Source: a virus. From it: a stretch of 64,000 bases of DNA. Within the stretch, counting starts at the first letter, position 1, and the number at the start of each line of letters is the position of its first letter. The stretch covers positions 8,059 to 72,058 of IMG/VR virus record IMGVR_UViG_3300046780_000427. One strand, written 5' to 3'. Positions 34,661 to 55,153 of this stretch are shown piece after piece. Under the pieces are notes generated by a model, which was not told the origin of the DNA, ran no database searches, and saw only the letters and a program-made list of their open reading frames with translations. The translations under genes and the position numbers were made by a program.

Positions 34661-35140
34661 ATGACCACCACCACAACCCGCCCCGGGCCCGCAGGATCGC
34701 TCCCGGGCCCGCGGGGACTACCAGCCAGCCAGGCTGAGGCCATCACGATCATCCTCGGCCTGTCCGACTCCCTCGATCAGATGCGCGCCTACGCCGGCGC
34801 GCTCTACCGCGCCGGCGTGCTCGAGGGGAGACGCCAGGCAGCCGGGTACTGCCCCGGCCACCGGGAACAGATCGCCGAAGCGTTCCTCGCGGGTGAACGC
34901 CAGGCCCGCGCCGATGACCTGCCCGCGTTTGATGCCGGGTTCGCCGCATGCTGGCAGCGGTTCGCGGTGGAGATCGCCACCAGGTCAGCGCCGCCGCGCT
35001 CCGGCAGGTGGCGGCGCCCGGTGTGCGGGGACCTGACCTGCGGCCGGGAAGCATGCCAGCCGAGACCCCGGCGGAAACGGGAACCGCACGACCAGGCAGC
35101 CATGATCACCCGTGCCCGCGAGTCCTGGGGGCTGACATGA
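34661..35140 (+). CDS. Hypothetical protein upstream of helicase
   Basis: ATGA-coupled to helicase. Confidence 0.55.
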   Translation: MTTTTTRPGPAGSLPGPRGLPASQAEAITIILGLSDSLDQMRAYAGALYRAGVLEGRRQAAGYCPGHREQIAEAFLAGERQARADDLPAFDAGFAACWQRFAVEIATRSAPPRSGRWRRPVCGDLTCGREACQPRPRRKREPHDQAAMITRARESWGLT

Positions 35141-36255
35141 CCGCACAGGACTGGTCAGACTCCATCAGCCCCGAGGAGTACGCGGCCGAGCGGATCACCG
35201 CCCTGCGCGCCTGCCTCTACCCGGTGGAGGACCTGGGGAAAATCCCGGCCCCGGTCAGCCTGGTGGACCACTGGCTCACGATGACGTCCCTCAACTGGCT
35301 GTTCGGCGACCGGGGGTCGTTCAAGTCGTTCGTGGCGATCGACTTCGCCGGGTGTGTCGGCACCGGCAAGTCATGGCACGGGCATGAGACCCGGCAGTCC
35401 CCCGTCCTGTACTGCGCGCTAGAAGGCGCACCCGGCCTCTACCAGCGGGTAAGGGCCTGGGAGGACCATGCCGGTGAGGAGATGACCGGCGTCCACTTCC
35501 TGGTCCCCAGATCCCTCCAGGTCGTGGATGACGGGGCCGTGCTCGCCGGCCTGGCTGCCGAGCTGGGCGCGGGCCTGGTCATCATCGACACGCAGAACCG
35601 TGCGACGGTCGGACTGGAGGAGAACTCCTCTATCGACATGGGCCGGATGATCGCTGCGATGGACCGGATCCAGCACGCCACCGGCGGGTGCGTCCTGACC
35701 ATCCACCACACCGCCGCCGGCTCCCACCGGCCCCGAGGCCACACGTCCATTGACGCGGCCGCTGCGGCGATGATCCGGGTGTCCTGCGACGGGGGCCTGG
35801 TCAAGGTCACCAACGAGAAGCAAAAGGACGGCCCCCGCGCGGGGATGATGCTGCTCAACGCGACCCCCCGCCTGGACTCGGTGGTCCTCACCGCGGACTC
35901 CGGGGTCGTCCTGACCGACTCGATGCGCACCGTCCTGGCCGCGTTGCGGAACCTGAATGAGACCGAAGGACCCGTGACCAACGCGCAGGTCAAACGGGCA
36001 TGCACCTCCCAGGGGATGCCGGAGGCAACGTTCAACTGGGCGCTGCGGGAGCTGAAGAACCGCGGGCAGGTCGAGCGGATCGGCCCGAAGACCGCGCCGA
36101 AGTGGCAACTGGTCGACAAACGTCAGGCCACCCTGGACGGCCCGGGGGAGACCCCGCCTGAGGCCCCGCCCGCATCCAACGGGCACCGGGAAACAGCCGA
36201 CGTGCCCGAAAGCCCGTGGGGAGCAGGGACCGCCGGTGAAGCAGCCCAGGTGTAA
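35137..36255 (+). CDS. AAA_25/RepA-like helicase with C-terminal winged helix
   Basis: Walker A GDRGSFKS, LEG, Walker B LVIIDT, ENSS, IHH, RGHTS. Confidence 0.85.
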   Translation: MTAQDWSDSISPEEYAAERITALRACLYPVEDLGKIPAPVSLVDHWLTMTSLNWLFGDRGSFKSFVAIDFAGCVGTGKSWHGHETRQSPVLYCALEGAPGLYQRVRAWEDHAGEEMTGVHFLVPRSLQVVDDGAVLAGLAAELGAGLVIIDTQNRATVGLEENSSIDMGRMIAAMDRIQHATGGCVLTIHHTAAGSHRPRGHTSIDAAAAAMIRVSCDGGLVKVTNEKQKDGPRAGMMLLNATPRLDSVVLTADSGVVLTDSMRTVLAALRNLNETEGPVTNAQVKRACTSQGMPEATFNWALRELKNRGQVERIGPKTAPKWQLVDKRQATLDGPGETPPEAPPASNGHRETADVPESPWGAGTAGEAAQV

Positions 36256-39914: not shown

Positions 39915-40133
39915 CCTGCTGGACGTGACTGGCCCGGCTGCGACGGTGGAAGCGCAGCCGGGCCAGTCCTATCCCGGGTGCCTGGTCTGCGGGGCTACTG
40001 ACCGGCCGTTGCGGGGGTTGCGGCAGGAGCCGGGGGAGGCACCGTGGCGGGTCTGCGCGGATCCTGGGCCGTGCCGGGACGCGGCCGGGCTGCCCCCGAT
40101 CTAGTTCTGCCGGCGTGGACAGAATGTCACAGG

Positions 40134-40183
40134 CCCATGCTACGGTTAACACGTAAGCAATCGACCCCCTGGAGAGAGGGAAC
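40134..40183 (+). promoter_or_regulatory. Conserved cassette leader A (extended -10, ACACGTAAGCA, GGAGAGAGGGAAC)
   Basis: tgcTACGGTtaacacgtaagca...ggagagagggaac. Confidence 0.75.
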
Positions 40184-40187
40184 CAAG

Positions 40188-41444
40188 ATGTCAACCATCA
40201 CCAACGAGGTCAACGCCCAGTTCGACACCCAGCGCGCCTCACAGATCGCCGCCTACGTCAACAACCAGGCCACCCAGGCTGACCGGATCGCCGCCGCAGA
40301 ACGCAGGGTCGCCTCCGGTGAACTGTCCGACATGGGCGGCGGGGCCTTCCGGGTCATGACCGGATGGGACCGCGGGGAAGTGTTCAACTTCGGCGCCAAC
40401 GGGCTCCTCATGCCGCAGGCCAATCTGGACCTCGCCGAGGACGGCAAGGCCCTCGGGTATTTCGCCGAGCCGGAGTGGCACGGTCTCGGCACCGTCATCC
40501 TCGGCGGCACCACCGACATCCCGCAGATCCTCCAGGTGTCCGGCGGGGACTACTACGTGGACAAGCGGATCTCCCGTGCGTTCGATGACCAGGGCAACCT
40601 GCTGGAGAACTCCGAGGGGTTCCAGACCGTCCGGCACGGCGGCGACCGGCCGGCGGCGATCCTCGGGCAGGTCGGTTCCCGGTGGACCCCGATTCAGAAT
40701 GAGGACGGGTTCGGGTTCCTGGCCGAGCTGATCGGCCGCAAGGAGATCCTGCCCGTGTCCGCGTTCCCGCTGTGGAACGGGCGGGTCTACGTGATGGCGC
40801 TGCGCCTCCCGGAGGACATCGTCCTAGACGCGCAGGGTGTCGGGGACATCATCCGGCCCTACATCATGGCCCGCAACTCCTTCGACGGGCGGACCCCGTT
40901 CCAGTGTGTCGTGACCCCGTGGCGGCCCCGCTGCTCCAACACTGAGCGGCTGGCCCTCCGGGATGCGATCACCACGTGGAAGGTCCCGCACACCACCAAC
41001 GCGCTCAAGCGCATCGATGAGGCCCGGCAGACCCTCGGCCTGACCCTCAACTATTACTCGGAGTTCGCCGCCGAGGAGGAGGCCCTGATCCACACCGACC
41101 TGACCACCCGTCAGATCGACACCCTGCTCTCGGAACTGGACGCCGAGCTGTGGCCGGAGACGACCAAGAAGGACGGCAAGGCCGAGCCGACGAAGCGGAC
41201 CGAGAAGATCCGCACGCTCCGGTCTGAGGGCCTGCGTGAGACCATCACCGAGGAGGGCGGCCAGGTCGGCCGGAACGCCTACGCGGTCGAGCGGGCCTAC
41301 ACCTCCTGGCTGGACCACTCCGCTCCCCGCCGCATGGCTGGCCTGCCCGATGGTGCCGCGAGGGCAACGGCGATCCTGGAGGGCTTCGAGGACGGTCGTA
41401 AGGACACCGTCCACAAGCGGCTGATGACCCTGGTCACCCGCTAA
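40188..41444 (+). CDS. DUF932/DUF945 family protein
   Basis: WHGLG...IQN...F...NSFDG...TPWRPRCSNT...HT. Confidence 0.85.
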   Translation: MSTITNEVNAQFDTQRASQIAAYVNNQATQADRIAAAERRVASGELSDMGGGAFRVMTGWDRGEVFNFGANGLLMPQANLDLAEDGKALGYFAEPEWHGLGTVILGGTTDIPQILQVSGGDYYVDKRISRAFDDQGNLLENSEGFQTVRHGGDRPAAILGQVGSRWTPIQNEDGFGFLAELIGRKEILPVSAFPLWNGRVYVMALRLPEDIVLDAQGVGDIIRPYIMARNSFDGRTPFQCVVTPWRPRCSNTERLALRDAITTWKVPHTTNALKRIDEARQTLGLTLNYYSEFAAEEEALIHTDLTTRQIDTLLSELDAELWPETTKKDGKAEPTKRTEKIRTLRSEGLRETITEEGGQVGRNAYAVERAYTSWLDHSAPRRMAGLPDGAARATAILEGFEDGRKDTVHKRLMTLVTR

Positions 41445-43866: not shown

Positions 43867-44192
43867 TGCCCGCTGAGGATGGCCTGCTGTGGCCTGAGGA
43901 GGTCGCCGCGAAGGCCGGATGGACCGCGAAGACGCTCCGCGCGCAGGTCGCCGCGTCCAAGAAACTCCAGGAGGCCGGCACCCTGGGCCCCCATCACCTG
44001 CCGATGCCCGCCGACCGCAGGCTCCGCCCCCATGACCGGACCCCGGCGAACCCGACCGGGAAGGGCGCCAAGTGGCAGAACCTATGGCGGCCCGGGGACA
44101 TCGAGGCGTGGCTGCCGAACCGCCGCAGGCCGGGGAACCCGGACGGGTTCGCCGCCTCACACGCTGCCGCCCGGGCCCGCCGTGGCAGCTAA
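43866..44192 (+). CDS. AlpA/excisionase-like HTH DNA-binding protein
   Basis: LLWPEEVAAKAGWTAKTLR...LPMP.D...LW....IEAW...R. Confidence 0.65.
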   Translation: MPAEDGLLWPEEVAAKAGWTAKTLRAQVAASKKLQEAGTLGPHHLPMPADRRLRPHDRTPANPTGKGAKWQNLWRPGDIEAWLPNRRRPGNPDGFAASHAAARARRGS

Positions 44193-44325
44193 CCTGGCCT
44201 GCGCGCATCTGCACTGCACCTACTGTGAGGCGCCGCTGCGGCGGGATGGGTCCTGCTGCGGCGAACCCCATGACCTGCCCTACCGTGAACGGGTAACAGC
44301 GCCCAGGTCAGGCACAATAGGCGCC

Positions 44326-44574
44326 ATGACAACTTCCCCCGCACCGATGACCGCCCCGGCCGGGCCGGCCTCCCAGCGGCATGTCGAAACGTCGATCACC
44401 CTCGCCAAGGGTGAGACCCTGACCGTCGCCCACCTGATCCAGCTCACCACCGACGCCGCCGCCGTGGGCCTGCCCGTGGAGGCGACTGTGCGGGTCGAGA
44501 ACCGCATCAGCGGCAAACCTATGCGGCTCACCGTGGCAGGCGAGGCGCCGGTCACAGTGTCAAGGCATGATTGA
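44326..44574 (+). CDS. Hypothetical protein
   Basis: ATG 7 nt after CACAAT, possibly leaderless. Confidence 0.5.
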   Translation: MTTSPAPMTAPAGPASQRHVETSITLAKGETLTVAHLIQLTTDAAAVGLPVEATVRVENRISGKPMRLTVAGEAPVTVSRHD

Positions 44575-44577: not shown

Positions 44578-45147
44578 GTGACCGACACCCAGCCTGAGGC
44601 AGCGTTCCGGCTAGGCCCCCAGCAGTTCGACCCCGCTATACCTGTTGAGTCGATCAGCGAGCACCCCCGCAACCCGAACGAGGGCGACATCGGGGCCATC
44701 CATGAGTCGATGGGGCAGCACGGGTTCGTCGGGGCGATCATGGTTCAGCGGTCCACCGGGTATGTCCTGGACGGCAACCACACCTACCGGACTGCTGTCG
44801 CGAAGGGTGCCCTGACCCTGCCCGGGTTCTGGCTTGACGTGGATGATGATGAGGCCCTGCGGATCCTCATGGATATCAACCACACCGCCCGCCTCGGCCG
44901 CGACGACCTGGCCCTGGCCTCCGCGCTCCTGCTGGATTTGCGCGGCCGCGGGGACCTGCCCGCGTCCTACTCCGATGACGACCTGCAGCAGATGCTTGAT
45001 GACCTGTCCGGGCCGGCGGCGCCGGATGAGTTCCCCGAGTACGGCGACGACATCAGCACCGAGCACGAATGCCCCCGCTGCGGGTACGCCTTTAGCGGTG
45101 GCACTAAGCGGCCTGTGGGCGCTGAGGACGCCGGCGCGGGCCCATGA
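44578..45147 (+). CDS. ParB/sulfiredoxin-like N-terminal domain protein with C-terminal Zn ribbon
   Basis: HPRNPNEGD...SM..HGF...VLDGNH...HECPRCGY. Confidence 0.8.
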   Translation: MTDTQPEAAFRLGPQQFDPAIPVESISEHPRNPNEGDIGAIHESMGQHGFVGAIMVQRSTGYVLDGNHTYRTAVAKGALTLPGFWLDVDDDEALRILMDINHTARLGRDDLALASALLLDLRGRGDLPASYSDDDLQQMLDDLSGPAAPDEFPEYGDDISTEHECPRCGYAFSGGTKRPVGAEDAGAGP

Positions 45148-46640
45148 CCCGGGTGCTCCTGCGCCTGCACCACCACGGCCAGGATTACCGTTGGGCTGAT
45201 GTGACCGACCGGCCGATGCCGACGATCAACACTATCGGGATCAGCGACCTCGGCAGCACAGGCCCGGATGGCATCATGATCGCGCCCACCCTGGGAGGCC
45301 CCGTGCCCGTAGTCGACAAACCGCCGTACCGGGTCCCGGGCATGGGAGAGATCCGGGCCCTGGAGTGGAACGGGTTTACCGCCGCGTCCACGTTCTCGGG
45401 GTGCGGCGGCGGGTGCCTGGGCCTGGAGATGGCCGGCTACCGGATCGGGTGGGCAAGCGAGTTCATCCCCGCCGCCGCTGACACCTACGCCGCGAACCAC
45501 CCTGGCGTGCACCTGGACACCAGGGACATCCGGCAGGTTGACCCGCAGGAGGTCCTGGACATCATGGGCCTGAAGGTGGGGGAGCTGGCCCTGCTCGAGG
45601 GGTCGCCGCCGTGCGCCGCGTTCTCCACCGCCGGGGTCAGGTCGGCGGGGTGGAATCAGCCGCGGAAATATTCGGACACGGTGCAGCGCACTGATGACCT
45701 GTTCGGGGAGTACTGCCGGATGATTGAGGGCCTGCGCCCGGCCGTGTTCACCGCCGAGAACGTCTCCGGCTTGGTCAAGGGTGTGGCGAAGGGGTATTTC
45801 AAGGAGATCCTGGCCCGGATGAAAGCCGCCGGCTACCAGGTGCAGGCCCGACTGTTGGACGCTTCGTGGCTGGGGGTGCCGCAGGCGAGGCAGCGGATCT
45901 TTTTCGTCGGCGTCCGCGAGGACCTGGGTATGGCCCCGGCCTACCCCAAGCCGCTCCCCTACCGGTATTCGGTGCGGGATGCGTTGCCGCACATCCTCGC
46001 CCAGGGCGCCAATACCGAGTTCGGTCAGGCAGCCTGGGAGGACGGGTCCCGGCCCTCGGGGAGCCTGGGCGCGGACCCGTCCACCGGTAATGGGCTGTCG
46101 CCGCCTGGGCATGTGCTCGAAGTCGCGGAGATCATCACCCAGCGGGGGCCCAAGGAAGAGCCGCAGTACTCCGCTGGGGACATCACTGACCGGCCCGCGC
46201 CGGCGGTCTTGGAGCGGAACGGGAACTATCAGGTCGCCGGCCCGACTGGGGTCACGCATGACCCGGAGACCGGCGCGGACATCACCATCGGCCGGTATGC
46301 CATCGGGAAGGAATGGCTGCGCCTGGCCGAGGGGCAGAAGTCGGGCCGTTACCAGCAGCTATGGCGTCCCGATGATGGCCGGCCCGTGCCGACGCTGACC
46401 GCCCGCGCCGGCGCCGAGGGCGTCGCCGGGGTGATGCACTGGGCGGAATGCCGCAAGCTCACGTTGGGGGAGCTGCGGGCCCTGTGCGGGTTCCCCCCGG
46501 ACTTTGTCCTCACCGGGTCCTATAAGCAACGGTGGGAACGGCTCGGCCGGGCGGTGCCGCCGGTGATGATGGCGCACCTGGCCGCAGCGATCCGGGACCA
46601 GATCCTGGTCCCGCTCCGCGCGGATGGGAGGATCGGGTAA
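45144..46640 (+). CDS. C5-cytosine DNA methyltransferase variant, predicted carboxymethyltransferase (motif X Asn replaced by Arg)
   Basis: Motifs I FSGCGG, IV GSPPC..FS, VI ENV, VIII PQARQRIFFVG, IX RKLT..E...LCGFP; X reads LGRAVPP instead of LGNAVPP. Confidence 0.9.
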   Translation: MTRVLLRLHHHGQDYRWADVTDRPMPTINTIGISDLGSTGPDGIMIAPTLGGPVPVVDKPPYRVPGMGEIRALEWNGFTAASTFSGCGGGCLGLEMAGYRIGWASEFIPAAADTYAANHPGVHLDTRDIRQVDPQEVLDIMGLKVGELALLEGSPPCAAFSTAGVRSAGWNQPRKYSDTVQRTDDLFGEYCRMIEGLRPAVFTAENVSGLVKGVAKGYFKEILARMKAAGYQVQARLLDASWLGVPQARQRIFFVGVREDLGMAPAYPKPLPYRYSVRDALPHILAQGANTEFGQAAWEDGSRPSGSLGADPSTGNGLSPPGHVLEVAEIITQRGPKEEPQYSAGDITDRPAPAVLERNGNYQVAGPTGVTHDPETGADITIGRYAIGKEWLRLAEGQKSGRYQQLWRPDDGRPVPTLTARAGAEGVAGVMHWAECRKLTLGELRALCGFPPDFVLTGSYKQRWERLGRAVPPVMMAHLAAAIRDQILVPLRADGRIG

Positions 46641-48041
46641 GTGTGCGGCATCCTCGCCGCGGCCGCCCAGGTGGACCTGTGGCTGGCCCTCGGCAGCCTG
46701 GAGCACCGCGGCCCCGACGCGCAGGCGTGGCAGGAGCATGCCGGGGTCTCACTCGGGCAGACCCGGCTGGCTATCCAGGACCTCGCCCCGGCCGGCGGCG
46801 GCCTGTTCACGGCGGGCCCGGTGGTCTGCGCCTACAACGGGGAGCTGTTCAACGGCCCGGAGGTCCGGAGCCTGGTCGAGGCTGCCCGCCCGGGCTACGT
46901 GTGGCACACCCACGGGGACACGGAGACCGTCACCGCCGCCCTCGGCGTCCTGCACCCGCAGGACGCCCTCGCCGCCTTCGACGGCATGTTCGCCGTCGCC
47001 TGGGCTGACACCCGGCACCCGGGGGTCCTGTTCTGCGCGAGGGACAGGTTCGGGGAGATCCCCCTGCACATCCACCGGCACATCCCGGCGCTGGTCGCCT
47101 CAGAGATCAAAGCGTTCGCCGCGCTTGGCCGCAGGTGCGGCGACGCGGTGATGGAGATCCCCCCGGCGTCGGTGTGCTCGATCCGGCATGCCGGCGCGCA
47201 GGTCACCGTCTCCCGGTACCTCCCTGCCCTGCCACCGGTCCCCGCACCTCCCACGGACCCGCCCGCGGAACTGCGCCGCCGGATCCGCGCCGGGGTGACC
47301 GCCCGGCTGATCAGCGACGCCCCGATATGCACGCTGCTGTCCGGTGGGCTGGACTCCGCGGTGATCGCCTACGAGCTGGGCCTCCTGGTCCCGGGCCTGG
47401 TGGCCTACACCGCGGTCATGGACAAGCACTCCCCCGACCTCCGCGCCGCTAGGGTCTGCGCGGAGCATCTTGGGGTGGAGCTGCGTGAGGTCACCATCGA
47501 CCCGCCGTCCGCCGATGACCTGGCGAACGTGGTGCGGCAGATCGAGCAGCCGCACAAGGCGCAGGTGGAGATCGGGTGGCCGTGCCTGGCACTGGCCAGG
47601 CAGATCCGTGAGGACGGGTTCAAGGTCACCTACTCCGGGGAAGGCGCCGATGAACTGTGGGCCTCCTACGGGTTCGCCTACCACGGCGTCAAGCAGCACG
47701 GCTGGTTTGGGTACCGGTTGCGGTTGATCACCGAGCAGCACCGGAAGAATTTCCCGAGGGTCAATAAGGCGTTCATGGCCCACGCGGTGGAGGCACGGTT
47801 GCCGTGGCTGGACCCCGGTGTCGTCGGCGTGGCCCTCGCCCTCCCGGTGGGCCTGGTCCGCACCCGTGGCCGGCTCAAAGGCATCGTGGAGGACGCCTAC
47901 CACGACGTACTGCCGGGCAAGATCCTGGCCCGGTCCAAACTGGCATTCCAGGACGGCCTGGGGATGAAGGAAGCCGCCGCCTCGGTGGCGGTCAAACCAA
48001 GGGAGTTCTACGGTGTCGAGTACCGCCGGGCATATAGCTGA
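46641..48041 (+). CDS. asnB: Asparagine synthetase B-like glutamine amidotransferase
   Basis: MCGI Ntn nucleophile, HRGPD, RLAI, NGELFN, RDRFG, LLSGGLDS, SGEGADEL. Confidence 0.9.
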   Translation: MCGILAAAAQVDLWLALGSLEHRGPDAQAWQEHAGVSLGQTRLAIQDLAPAGGGLFTAGPVVCAYNGELFNGPEVRSLVEAARPGYVWHTHGDTETVTAALGVLHPQDALAAFDGMFAVAWADTRHPGVLFCARDRFGEIPLHIHRHIPALVASEIKAFAALGRRCGDAVMEIPPASVCSIRHAGAQVTVSRYLPALPPVPAPPTDPPAELRRRIRAGVTARLISDAPICTLLSGGLDSAVIAYELGLLVPGLVAYTAVMDKHSPDLRAARVCAEHLGVELREVTIDPPSADDLANVVRQIEQPHKAQVEIGWPCLALARQIREDGFKVTYSGEGADELWASYGFAYHGVKQHGWFGYRLRLITEQHRKNFPRVNKAFMAHAVEARLPWLDPGVVGVALALPVGLVRTRGRLKGIVEDAYHDVLPGKILARSKLAFQDGLGMKEAAASVAVKPREFYGVEYRRAYS

Positions 48042-48807
48042 ACCTGCCAGGGTCGAGGGACTGCGGGACCTGGCCCCCGATCCCAGGTCGGACCTGGCTG
48101 GCCGGTTCCCCGGCGGCGGGTGGCAGTTCACCTCCGAAGTCGCAGCGGTGTTCGATGATCATGTGCGCGCGTCGGTGCCGTTCTACGATGCGATCCAGTC
48201 GCTGATCGCGGAGCTGGCGGACTGGCTCCTCCCCGCGGGGGGCCTCCTGGCCGACCTGGGTTGCTCGACGGGGAACACTGCCGCGGCGATCCTCATGCGG
48301 CAGCCCGACCGGGGCCTGCGCGTGCACCTGTACGACGAGTCGGTGCCGATGCTGGCCAAGGCCCGGCCCATGCTCGAGGGGCTGGCACCGGGCCGCGTGG
48401 CAGCGACGATCGGCCGGCTCCCCGGTGAGGGACTGGAACACGCCGGCGCGGACCTGACGGTGGCCGCGTTCCTGCTCCAGTTCCTGCCCTGGGCGGACAG
48501 GTTCCGGCTGCTGTGCATGGCCCGGGCGGCGGCTGCGGAGACGGGTGCGCTGATCCTCGCGGAGAAGACCCGCCCCGCTGACTCCCGGTGGGCGGAGATC
48601 GCCGCTGAGGTCTCCCACGATGTGAAGGAATCCAACGGGATCACCGCCGGGGAGATCCGGGCCAAGGCCCGGTCGCTGCGCGGCGTCCTGCTCCCCGGCC
48701 GCCTGGACTATGTGATGGCACAGGCCGAGGAGGCCGGGTGGTGTTCCCCGGAGGTCCTGTTCCGGTGGCATTCGTGGGCAGTGATCGGCGCGTTCGCTAC
48801 GCCCTGA
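48013..48807 (+). CDS. cmoA: CmoA-like carboxy-S-adenosylmethionine synthase
   Basis: WQF..EVA.VFDD.V..SVPFY, DLGCSTG, LQFL, LILAEK, HD.K..NG....EI..K...L.GV, collinear with CmoA. Confidence 0.8.
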   Translation: MSSTAGHIAEPARVEGLRDLAPDPRSDLAGRFPGGGWQFTSEVAAVFDDHVRASVPFYDAIQSLIAELADWLLPAGGLLADLGCSTGNTAAAILMRQPDRGLRVHLYDESVPMLAKARPMLEGLAPGRVAATIGRLPGEGLEHAGADLTVAAFLLQFLPWADRFRLLCMARAAAAETGALILAEKTRPADSRWAEIAAEVSHDVKESNGITAGEIRAKARSLRGVLLPGRLDYVMAQAEEAGWCSPEVLFRWHSWAVIGAFATP

Positions 48808-54661: not shown

Positions 54662-55153
54662 ATGAGAAAGCGCACTATCGTTTTCGGGACCGCCGCTGTC
54701 GGCGTGGCCGCGCTCATCGTTATCGGTGCCGTCACGGCATCACCGCCCCCGGCCAGCCACCGGGCACCTGCCACGCAGGCCGCCACCTCGGCTCCTGCCG
54801 CCGCCACGGTCCCGGCCGCGCCTGCCCCGCCGCAGTTCACCCCGGCGCAGCAGCAGGTCCTCGACTCCGCCGAGTCCTACCTGACGGACGGGCAAGGGTT
54901 CTCCAAGGCCAGGCTGATGGACCAGCTCACGTCCTCCTCCGGTGAGGGGTTCTCCCACCGGCTGGCCAGGTTCGCGCTCGCCCACCTTCAGGTCAACTGG
55001 AATCAGCAGGCCGTCCTGTCCGCCAAGGGATACCTGACCGATGGGCAGGGGTTCTCCCGCTCGGGGCTGGTGCAGCAACTCGAATCGGCCTTCGGGGAGC
55101 AGTTCACCCCGGCGCAGGCCCGCCACGGTGCCGCCGTGGCGATGCGAGGCTGA
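54662..55153 (+). CDS. Ltp-family surface protein (putative superinfection exclusion)
   Basis: TM anchor, Pro/Ala linker, two repeats SA.SYL...GFS...L..QL....GE.F. Confidence 0.85.
   Translation: MRKRTIVFGTAAVGVAALIVIGAVTASPPPASHRAPATQAATSAPAAATVPAAPAPPQFTPAQQQVLDSAESYLTDGQGFSKARLMDQLTSSSGEGFSHRLARFALAHLQVNWNQQAVLSAKGYLTDGQGFSRSGLVQQLESAFGEQFTPAQARHGAAVAMRG

What the first reader, a model, noticed from the sequence alone, without database searches (positions are those of the whole stretch)
46530..46565. Natural Asn-to-Arg substitution in MTase motif X (LGRAVPP)
Seen: motif X, normally G-N-A/S-V, reads G-R-A-V (codon CGG at 46548-46550), while motifs I, IV, VI, VIII and IX are intact. Known: changing this Asn to a basic residue (M.MpeI N374K) converts a C5 MTase into a Cx-SAM-using carboxymethyltransferase. 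This is residue-level support for the pathway, independent of gene neighbourhood.
Basis: partly seen in the sequence, partly recalled or inferred. Interest (0 to 1): 0.85.

Follow-up and report, generated by a model that had tools for sequence, protein, structure and literature searches.

The report
Phage DNA carboxymethyltransferase (CmoX) with arginine
This phage gene encodes a cytosine methyltransferase look-alike whose key arginine marks it as a member of the recently published CmoX family, which puts carboxymethyl rather than methyl groups on DNA; it is a correct call on an already known kind of system.

Summary
ORF 45144-46640 (+, 498 aa) is a C5-cytosine methyltransferase fold, and codon CGG at 46548-46550 is Arg469 in ERLGRAVPP, where canonical enzymes have Asn.

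The best solved relative is SpCmoX (PDB 8YF3, E 8.9e-56), a Cx-SAM-dependent DNA cytosine C5-carboxymethyltransferase. Its Arg350 contacts the Cx-SAM carboxymethyl group and aligns with Arg469.

The window carries the published cassette: ParB-like protein, CmoX, an AsnB-like glutamine-amidotransferase ligase and CmoA. The order matches Streptomyces phage TurkishDelight gp122-125.

In my own test, 189 of 194 Arg-type loci (window included) have cmoA nearby, against 0 of 26 Asn-type loci. The tree shows only 2-3 Arg/Asn switches, so this is a clade property and not many independent events.

Still open is the ligase step. This glutamine-hydrolysing type (55% identical to A0A7T0Q3R0) is uncharacterised. 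The predicted product, 5-carbamoylmethylcytosine, has not been shown in DNA.

One small addition: the residue after the catalytic Cys (Ala158, canonical Gln) co-varies with the Arg.

Verdict: new member of a known kind, modest interest.

The parts
44578..45147 (+). ParB-like N-terminal-domain protein (189 aa). Its stop overlaps the CmoX start (ATGA). The start codon is uncertain.
   Evidence: phrog_723 'ParB-like partition protein' E 1.1e-20; no Pfam hit at E<=0.001. A homologue lies upstream of the MTase in 106 of 128 Arg-type and 11 of 14 Asn-type viral loci, so it accompanies both types. The paper reports ParBc neighbours for 1660 of 5615 CmoX.
45144..46640 (+). CmoX-family DNA cytosine C5-carboxymethyltransferase (498 aa). 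Catalytic Cys157 sits in SPPC, and Arg469 is predicted to bind the Cx-SAM carboxylate. Residues 1-55 and about 290-370 (target-recognition insert) are modelled with low confidence.
   Evidence: PF00145 E 1.4e-49. 8YF3 E 8.9e-56 with F84/E106/F107/D128/C157/R469 aligned to F25/E47/F48/D69/C98/R350. These residues are conserved in 80 of 80 relatives, except R469 in 79 of 80. AF2 model pLDDT 81. Best PDB fold match is 8YF3, E 1.3e-26, TM 0.77 on the target.
46548..46550 (+). CGG codon for Arg469 in motif X (GRAVPP), the flagged residue.
   Evidence: aligned to SpCmoX R350 and to the HaeIII Asn.
45615..45617 (+). Codon for Ala158, the residue after catalytic Cys157 (canonical motif IV has Gln). 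It is a second position that co-varies with Arg469.
   Evidence: Position computed from the ORF start. Arg-type relatives: A 145, S 45, C 4, V 2, T 1, Q 1 of 198. Asn-type relatives: Q 52, T 9, V 7, E 2, S 1 of 71.
46641..48041 (+). AsnB-like glutamine-amidotransferase / ATP-dependent amide ligase (466 aa, GTG start followed by Cys). It is the 'CmoY-like' ligase of the glutamine-hydrolysing type and is predicted to amidate 5-carboxymethylcytosine in DNA.
   Evidence: PF13537 GATase_7 E 6.7e-20 plus PF00733 Asn_synthase E 1.2e-39. TIGR01536 scores 222.8 bits, below the 267.1 cut-off. E. coli AsnB 1CT9 E 1.8e-34 with HRGPD, RLxI, NGEx(F/Y)N, DxE, LLSGGLDS and SGEGxDE aligned. 55% identical over its full length to TurkishDelight gp124, which is UniRef100_A0A7T0Q3R0.
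48013..48807 (+). CmoA-like carboxy-SAM synthase (264 aa). It overlaps the end of the ligase gene by 29 nt, as its TurkishDelight counterpart does.
   Evidence: TIGR00740 CmoA E 1.5e-30 but 106.7 bits, below the 193.3 cut-off. E. coli CmoA 4GEK E 1.1e-21 over residues 35-256 against 30-250. phrog_4752 E 5.7e-48. 60% identical to TurkishDelight gp125; the TurkishDelight overlap is.

Best explanation
The ORF at 45144-46640 is a CmoX-family enzyme. It has the C5-cytosine methyltransferase fold but uses carboxy-SAM (Cx-SAM) instead of SAM and makes 5-carboxymethylcytosine in the phage's own DNA.

Proposed mechanism, by homology with SpCmoX: Cys157 attacks C6 of a flipped-out cytosine. The C5 carbanion takes the carboxymethyl group from Cx-SAM. 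Arg469 (motif X) holds the carboxylate of that group, in the place where methyltransferases have Asn.

The cofactor comes from the phage's own CmoA (48013-48807), which makes Cx-SAM from SAM and host prephenate.

The gene between them (46641-48041) is an AsnB-like enzyme with an intact glutamine-hydrolysing domain and an ATP pyrophosphatase (PP-loop) domain. It most likely adenylates the new carboxylate and amidates it with glutamine-derived ammonia. That would give 5-carbamoylmethylcytosine, which should protect the DNA from host nucleases.

Shown here: gene identities, residue correspondence, synteny, and the Arg/cmoA association.
Shown by others for a homologue: Cx-SAM use, 5cxmC formation, and the role of the Arg.
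Inferred: activity of this particular enzyme, its target sequence, and the amide product.
For: 1. Residue-level match to a solved, assayed homologue. 8YF3 (SpCmoX) is the best sequence hit (E 8.9e-56) and the best fold hit (E 1.3e-26). R469 aligns with R350. The adenine- and ribose-binding F25/E47/F48/D69 and the nucleophile C98 are all matched.

2. The paper (PMC12783734; abstract, Results and Discussion read) reports that SpCmoX uses only Cx-SAM, that R350 contacts the carboxymethyl group, and that CmoA supplies Cx-SAM.

3. The cassette ParB-like / CmoX / ligase / CmoA has the same order as TurkishDelight gp122-125. Protein identities are 53%, 55% and 60%.

4. Association counts.
- 143 non-redundant viral-contig loci: Arg 125 with cmoA and 3 without; Asn 0 with and 14 without; 1 unresolved (Fisher p 8.5e-17).
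- 80 loci from species-representative genomes: Arg 64 with and 2 without; Asn 0 with and 12 without; 2 unresolved.

5. No CmoB (PF08003) is found in the 72-kb viral record, so a tRNA role for Cx-SAM is unlikely.

6. The ligase keeps the N-terminal Cys and the motifs of both AsnB active sites. A full-length homologue of it sits beside 30 of 128 Arg-type and 0 of 14 Asn-type viral loci.
Against: - No biochemistry exists for this protein or for any member of its actinophage subgroup.
- The Arg/cmoA association rests on few independent events. FastTree trees need only 3 Arg/Asn changes (143 rows) or 2 (220 rows). There are 2 independent contrasts, both in the expected direction, and a sign test cannot reach significance.
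- CmoA and the ligase both score below NCBIfam's trusted cut-offs for CmoA and AsnB.
- The target-recognition region (about 275-410) does not align with SpCmoX and is modelled at low confidence, so the GC specificity of SpCmoX cannot be transferred.
- The authors could not obtain soluble enzyme from the glutamine-hydrolysing ligase cluster, so ammonia as the amine is a prediction.
- 5 of 194 Arg-type loci show no cmoA in the fetched flanks. These are L052, L064, L111, L239 and L243. Four of the five fetched loci are only 3.3-7.8 kb long; L052 (13.5 kb) has full flanks.
Confidence: 0.85

Rival explanations
1. CmoX and CmoA work as proposed, but the ligase does not make the primary amide. It might attach another amine (an amino acid or polyamine), with the glutaminase domain inactive or regulatory. 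Alternatively it might act on something other than DNA, so that the final base is 5cxmC or a different conjugate.
For: The only characterised ligase of the system, SpCmoY, attaches glycine. The paper notes several ligase clusters with distinct active-site residues and unknown amines. The window's ligase is below the AsnB equivalog cut-off. No enzyme of its cluster has been assayed.
Against: The N-terminal Cys and the glutamine-site motifs (HRGPD, RLxI, NGE, DxE) align with AsnB, which argues for a working glutaminase. The paper itself proposes glutamine-derived ammonia for this cluster.
Confidence: 0.15
2. The protein is an ordinary SAM-dependent 5-methylcytosine methyltransferase in which Arg at motif X is tolerated, and the neighbouring CmoA-like gene serves another purpose.
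For: All catalytic motifs of C5-MTases are present. Close Asn-type relatives with the same architecture exist: 58 of the 150 best cluster representatives. Engineered M.MpeI N374K and M.MedI N377K keep some methylation activity (passages of PMC12015181).
Against: Wild-type SpCmoX accepts only Cx-SAM. Arg is kept in 198 relatives together with a small residue in place of the motif IV Gln. cmoA is adjacent in 189 of 194 Arg-type loci and in 0 of 26 Asn-type loci.
Confidence: 0.04
3. The cassette modifies RNA (for example tRNA) or a small molecule or peptide rather than phage DNA, as other CmoA-containing pathways do.
For: CmoA homologues serve tRNA cmo5U, 3-thiaglutamate and microcin C biosynthesis (review PMC10491745, passages).
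Against: No CmoB is found in the record. The transferase is a DNA C5-MTase fold with the DNA-contacting motifs VIII and IX and a ParB-like DNA-binding neighbour. The homologue modifies phage genomic DNA in vivo.
Confidence: 0.03

Closest known systems
SpCmoX of Synechococcus phage S-B43 (PDB 8YF3; PMC12783734)
   Same: C5-MTase fold. SPPC nucleophile motif. Arg at the motif X position that contacts the Cx-SAM carboxymethyl group. Conserved adenine and ribose contacts. cmoA and an Asn-synthetase-like ligase next door.
   Different: The window protein is 498 aa against 372 aa. It has a 55-residue N-terminal extension and a much longer, non-alignable target-recognition region, so its sequence specificity is unknown. 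The host is a high-GC actinomycete rather than a cyanobacterium. The partner ligase carries a glutaminase domain, whereas SpCmoY ligates glycine.
Streptomyces phage TurkishDelight gp122-125 (NC_073473). gp124 is UniProt A0A7T0Q3R0, the named representative of the paper's second-largest ligase cluster.
   Same: Same four genes in the same order and with the same 29-nt ligase/cmoA overlap. GR in motix X. Identities of 53%, 55% and 60%.
   Different: It is a different phage: only about half of the residues are identical, and megablast against the phage collection returned no match. In TurkishDelight the cassette is at the right genome end, whereas here about 15 kb of genome follows it. Neither has been assayed.
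Engineered M.MpeI N374K and M.MedI N377K
   Same: A basic residue replaces the motif X Asn and confers Cx-SAM-dependent cytosine C5 carboxymethylation through a salt bridge to the carboxylate (PMC12015181 passages; PMC12783734 Discussion).
   Different: These are laboratory mutants with Lys, CG specificity and residual methylation activity. The natural enzymes use Arg and also differ at the residue after the catalytic Cys. I did not align M.MpeI itself, so the equivalence to N374 rests on the paper's statement.
Canonical C5-MTases M.HaeIII and M.HhaI
   Same: Fold and all ten-motif architecture; covalent Cys mechanism.
   Different: They have Asn at motif X and Gln after the catalytic Cys, and they use SAM.
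E. coli asparagine synthetase B (1CT9)
   Same: Two-domain layout: an Ntn-Cys glutaminase plus a PP-loop synthetase, with the motifs of both sites aligned.
   Different: The window protein is about 90 residues shorter at the C-terminus and scores below the equivalog cut-off. Its predicted acyl substrate is a DNA-borne carboxymethyl group, not aspartate.

Membership tests
CmoX (DNA cytosine C5-carboxymethyltransferase) | C5-cytosine MTase fold with the 'SPPC' nucleophile motif (one of the paper's selection criteria) | tested here: met
   PF00145 E 1.4e-49; S154-P155-P156-C157; conserved in 80 of 80 relatives. Asn-type relatives also have SPPC, so this feature alone does not discriminate.
CmoX (DNA cytosine C5-carboxymethyltransferase) | Arg at the position of SpCmoX R350 (the paper's second criterion) | tested here: met
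   R469 aligns with R350 in 'ERLGRAVPPVMM' against 'ERVGRMVPPLMM' (second domain E 2.6e-12).
CmoX (DNA cytosine C5-carboxymethyltransferase) | Structural similarity to the solved CmoX | tested here: met
   AF2 model (pLDDT 81). Top Foldseek PDB hit is 8YF3, E 1.3e-26, TM 0.77 normalised to the target. A residue-level superposition of the Arg was not available from the tool.
CmoX (DNA cytosine C5-carboxymethyltransferase) | Genomic association with a Cx-SAM synthase (cmoA) | tested here: met
   A CmoA-like gene lies 1.4 kb downstream in the same operon-like array.
CmoX (DNA cytosine C5-carboxymethyltransferase) | Uses Cx-SAM, not SAM, and forms 5-carboxymethylcytosine in DNA | not testable with these tools
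   Shown only for SpCmoX.
CmoA (carboxy-SAM synthase) | Full-length similarity to E. coli CmoA, including the C-terminal region beyond the Rossmann core | tested here: met
   4GEK E 1.1e-21, residues 35-256 against 30-250; phrog_4752 E 5.7e-48.
CmoA (carboxy-SAM synthase) | Score above NCBIfam TIGR00740 equivalog cut-off | tested here: not met
   106.7 bits against a cut-off of 193.3. It is a divergent phage branch. The phage SpCmoA was shown to be active, but I did not compare the two directly.
CmoY as characterised (glycine ligase SpCmoY) | Asn-synthetase-like ATP-dependent ligase next to CmoX | tested here: met
   PF00733 E 1.2e-39; SGGLDS PP-loop.
CmoY as characterised (glycine ligase SpCmoY) | Glycine as the amine, with no glutaminase domain implied | tested here: not met
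   The window protein has an N-terminal GATase domain (PF13537 E 6.7e-20). It groups with A0A7T0Q3R0 (55% identity), which the paper places in a separate, uncharacterised cluster.
Asparagine synthetase B (glutamine-hydrolysing) | Equivalog-level similarity (TIGR01536) | tested here: not met
   222.8 bits against a cut-off of 267.1. It works like AsnB but is not filed as an asparagine synthetase.

The most novel reading that the evidence does not exclude
This phage, like TurkishDelight, carries 5-carbamoylmethylcytosine in its DNA. An AsnB-like glutamine amidotransferase acting on a DNA-borne carboxylate would make it. That would be a DNA base not yet demonstrated and the first glutamine-dependent amidation of DNA.

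In addition, Cx-SAM specificity in natural CmoX enzymes may depend on at least two pocket changes: Asn to Arg in motif X, and Gln to Ala/Ser after the catalytic Cys. This would explain why the single R350N reversal is dead and why single-site engineered enzymes are weak.
Probability: 0.5. Interest if true: 0.55.

Novelty: new member of a known kind. Interest (0 to 1): 0.3.

Why it matters
The call itself adds one more member to a family of several thousand predicted CmoX enzymes, so it changes little.

Its value is practical. It places a high-GC actinophage in the glutamine-amidotransferase branch of the pathway, whose product nobody has measured. It also points to the one cultured phage found by a phage-collection search with this ligase (TurkishDelight on Streptomyces scabiei), where a single LC-MS run on virion DNA would settle the product.

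The co-varying Ala/Ser after the catalytic Cys is a testable lead for improving the engineered carboxymethyltransferases used in methylation sequencing.

Tried and rejected
- Megablast of the cassette against 50,697 phage records gave no match.
- The search for related loci with the single protein found nothing. It worked once an alignment was given.
- I looked for a phage-encoded route to prephenate (chorismate mutase, PF01817) and for CmoB (PF08003) in the 72-kb record. Neither is present. The record is estimated 79% complete, so absence is not proof.
- Ten small ORFs downstream of cmoA gave only one hit above Pfam's cut-off, an Ltp lipoprotein domain, and nothing relevant.
- I tried to turn the Arg/cmoA association into a phylogenetically independent test. 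Only 2 contrasts exist, so no significance is possible. The trait's own column was not removed from the tree alignments.
- P0122 looked like a CmoX-ligase fusion that would have supported a functional link. It lacks motifs IX-X, and the ligase part starts with its own Met-Cys, so I read it as a frameshift or assembly artefact.
- The Asp-type subclade was examined for a neighbouring cofactor gene. In the one good viral locus the neighbours are ParB, terminase and portal, with no cmoA. Nothing can be concluded.
- A search for 'carbamoylmethyl' + cytosine + bacteriophage + 'DNA modification' found 8 papers (5 listed). The passages I read in 2 of them concern tRNA uridine or adenine, not cytosine in DNA.
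- CmoA active-site residues could not be checked, because the review passages read give none.
- Supplementary files of PMC12783734 are closed. They hold the sequence comparisons, the R350N data and the ligase pocket models, and they may already cover the position after the catalytic Cys.
Full report
**1. What is in the sequence**

The window is bases 8059-72058 of a 72,058-base IMG/VR virus record, CheckV completeness 79%. GC content is 70%.

ORF 45144-46640 on the + strand encodes 498 residues. Bases 46530-46565 read RWERLGRAVPPV, and 46548-46550 is CGG, which is Arg469. The protein matches Pfam DNA_methylase (E 1.4e-49) and NCBIfam dcm (E 9.3e-45).

Motifs I (FSGCGG), IV (GSPPCAAFS), VI (ENV), VIII (QARQR) and IX are present. 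Motif names are recalled from the C5-MTase literature.

One detail differs from 'all other motifs intact'. The residue after the catalytic Cys is Ala, where M.HaeIII and most Asn-type relatives have Gln.

**2. What it is**

The best match among solved structures is 8YF3 (E 8.9e-56). The next best, M.HaeIII, is at E 5.5e-22. In that alignment ERLGRAVPPVMM pairs with ERVGRMVPPLMM, and counting along the printed chain numbering puts Arg469 on Arg350. The same alignment pairs F84, E106, F107, D128 and C157 with F25, E47, F48, D69 and C98.

An AlphaFold2 model built on 50 sequences has mean pLDDT 81. Confidence is low only in residues 1-55 and about 290-370. Its best PDB fold match is again 8YF3, titled 'DNA cytosine C5-carboxymethyltransferase in complex with Cx-SAM' (E 1.3e-26, TM 0.77 on the target).

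8YF3 belongs to Yang et al., Nat Commun 2025 (PMC12783734). I read the abstract, all of Results and the Discussion. They report the following:
- SpCmoX of Synechococcus phage S-B43 transfers the carboxymethyl group of Cx-SAM to C5 of cytosine in GC sites.
- The wild type accepts only Cx-SAM.
- Arg350 replaces HhaI Asn304 and contacts the carboxymethyl group.
- R350N accepts neither cofactor.
- A phage CmoA makes the Cx-SAM.
- An Asn-synthetase-like ligase, CmoY, adds glycine.
- They list 5,615 candidate CmoX with SPPC and R350, with 4,257 CmoA, 2,251 ligases and 1,660 ParBc proteins on the same contigs.

**3. The neighbourhood**

Four co-directional genes touch or overlap one another:
- A ParB-like protein at 44578-45147 (phrog_723, E 1.1e-20).
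- CmoX at 45144-46640.
- A 466-aa protein at 46641-48041 with GATase_7 and Asn_synthase domains.
- A 264-aa CmoA-like protein at 48013-48807. It matches TIGR00740 at E 1.5e-30 but below the trusted cut-off, and E. coli CmoA 4GEK at E 1.1e-21 over nearly the full length.

The ligase begins Met(GTG)-Cys. It aligns with E. coli AsnB (1CT9, E 1.8e-34) through the glutaminase motifs HRGPD, RLxI, NGEx(F/Y)N and DxE, and through the synthetase motifs LLSGGLDS and SGEGxDE. The roles of these motifs in AsnB are recalled, not taken from a call.

No CmoB and no chorismate mutase are found in the record.

The closest cultured relative is Streptomyces phage TurkishDelight. Its gp122-125 are annotated ParB-like nuclease domain protein / methyltransferase / glutamine amidotransferase domain / methyltransferase, in the same order. 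Protein identities to the window are 53%, 55% and 60%.

TurkishDelight gp124 is UniRef100_A0A7T0Q3R0. That is the protein the paper names as representative of its second-largest ligase cluster. The cluster has a glutamine-hydrolysing domain, ammonia is proposed as its substrate, and no soluble enzyme could be obtained. Among 50,697 phage records, only TurkishDelight (two records of one genome) matches the window's ligase at E<=1e-20.

**4. Does Arg go with cmoA?**

I repeated the test independently of the paper.

*Viral contigs.* Two alignment-seeded scans gave 154 loci, which reduce to 143 non-redundant ones. I read the residue aligned to 469 and searched stop-to-stop ORFs in the flanks (up to 6 kb each side, often cut by contig ends). 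The search used an HMM built from the CmoA-like hits themselves.
- Arg: 125 with cmoA, 3 without.
- Asn: 0 with cmoA, 14 without.
- 1 unresolved.
- Fisher p is 8.5e-17.

*Species-representative bacterial and archaeal genomes.* One scan, 80 loci.
- Arg: 64 with cmoA, 2 without. Both exceptions are on contigs of 3.3 kb and 6.1 kb.
- Asn: 0 with cmoA, 12 without.
- 2 unresolved.

One locus of the second set is the same contig as one in the first and was dropped from the union. The union of 220 rows, with the window included, has 189 Arg with cmoA, 5 Arg without, and 26 Asn without.

Against reading this as many independent confirmations: FastTree trees need only 3 or 2 Arg/Asn changes. There are only 2 independent contrasts. 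Both go the expected way, but a sign test cannot reach significance.

The fair statement is this. The Arg-type enzymes form essentially one clade. That clade has kept both the Arg and the linked cmoA at 43-61% identity to the window protein, in assemblies labelled as actinomycetes, Verrucomicrobia, planctomycetes, cyanobacteria and proteobacteria among others. Its Asn-type sisters never have cmoA.

The ParB-like neighbour is not specific: it accompanies 106 of 128 Arg-type and 11 of 14 Asn-type viral loci. The glutaminase-type ligase is specific: 30 of 128 against 0 of 14.

**5. How common is the Arg among relatives?**

In the 1.84-billion-protein representative library, 1,004 cluster representatives match at E<=1e-30. 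Of the best 150:
- 75 have Arg.
- 58 have Asn.
- 7 have Asp.
- 2 have Gln, 2 have Leu and 1 has Met.
- 5 do not cover the position.

So the Arg is neither a universal feature of this architecture nor a sporadic variant.

**6. A second co-varying position**

I aligned 291 relatives: 142 viral loci plus 149 representatives, with possible overlap between the two sets. I then compared Arg-type with Asn-type rows.

| Position | Arg-type (198 rows) | Asn-type (71 rows) |
|---|---|---|
| After catalytic Cys (window Ala158) | A 145, S 45, C 4, V 2, T 1, Q 1 | Q 52, T 9, V 7, E 2, S 1 |
| Tyr176 | 198 | 35 |
| Ser177 | 197 | 8 |
| Glu465 | 195 | 25 |

SpCmoX has Ser after its Cys98 and keeps the 'YSD' triplet (alignment).

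The main text of the paper contains none of the terms Ser-99, S99, Gln-82 or Tyr. Its figures and supplements were not visible to me.

Given the few transitions on the tree, this is a hypothesis, not a demonstrated determinant. It would fit the dead R350N mutant and the modest activity of the single-site M.MpeI N374K, whose kcat/KM is 0.07 against 14.52 nM-1 min-1 for M.MedI N377K (passages of PMC12015181).

**7. Mechanism and verdict**

The best-supported reading is the published CmoA-CmoX pathway with a glutamine-dependent amidation as the last step. That would give 5-carbamoylmethylcytosine.

- The first two steps rest on strong homology to assayed enzymes.
- The third step is inference, from intact AsnB-like active sites and from the paper's own proposal.
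- Target sequence specificity is unknown, because the recognition domain is unrelated in length and does not align with SpCmoX.

The host is probably a Streptomyces-like actinomycete. The grounds are the 70% GC content, a best genomic relative in a Streptomyces sp. contig at 61% identity, and TurkishDelight. In the 14 control genomes, TIGR00740 scored above its cut-off only in E. coli. This is consistent with such a phage needing its own cmoA, but that point is a weak inference.

What lowers the score is that the family, the role of the Arg, the gene neighbourhood and even this ligase subtype were described in December 2025.

Noticed in passing
window 45615-45617 (Ala158), with 45669-45674 (Tyr176-Ser177) and 46536-46538 (Glu465): These positions co-vary with Arg469 across 198 Arg-type and 71 Asn-type relatives. 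The canonical motif IV Gln after the catalytic Cys is replaced by Ala/Ser/Cys in 194 of 198 Arg-type proteins. They may be second-site determinants of Cx-SAM use.
   Followed up: partly
proteins P0100, P0107, P0125, P0132, P0137, P0142, P0143; locus L160:911-2893: A subclade has Asp at the Asn/Arg position (GDAVPP) and Glu-Pro after the catalytic Cys (SPPCEPFS, invariant in 7 of 7). This makes two extra acidic residues in the cofactor pocket. The one good viral locus has ParB upstream and terminase and portal downstream, with no cmoA. Its cofactor preference is unexplained.
   Followed up: partly
loci L166-L193, L201 (Verrucomicrobial MAG contigs): Single Verrucomicrobia assemblies hold 3-6 diverged copies (74-91% DNA identity over 3-13 kb) of elements carrying ParB-CmoX-CmoA without the glutaminase ligase. 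In one case two copies lie on one contig. They are probably several related prophages per genome.
   Followed up: partly
protein P0122 (818 aa, from the representative library): This looks like a fusion of the N-terminal two-thirds of a CmoX (no motifs IX-X) with a complete glutaminase-type ligase that is 47% identical to the window's. It is more likely a frameshift or assembly artefact than a real fusion.
   Followed up: partly
loci L062, L088, L091, L092 and 10 others (viral contigs): Asn-type enzymes up to 48% identical to the window's CmoX, with the same SPPC motif and often a ParB neighbour, lack both cmoA and the ligase. They are natural comparators for cofactor-switch experiments.
   Followed up: partly
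window 54662-55153 (+): A 163-aa ORF has two Ltp lipoprotein repeats (PF07553, E 1.1e-25). This domain is known, from recall, in phage superinfection-exclusion proteins.
   Followed up: no
window 40044-41444 (+) and 34948-36255 (+): A DUF932 protein (E 5e-35; phrog_1221) and an AAA_25 ATPase (E 3.7e-30) lie upstream of the cassette. They are probably part of the replication/recombination module.
   Followed up: no
window 43879-44574 (+): A 231-aa ORF very rich in Arg and Pro has no family hit. It did not pass a GC3-based coding filter, so it is probably not a gene.
   Followed up: no
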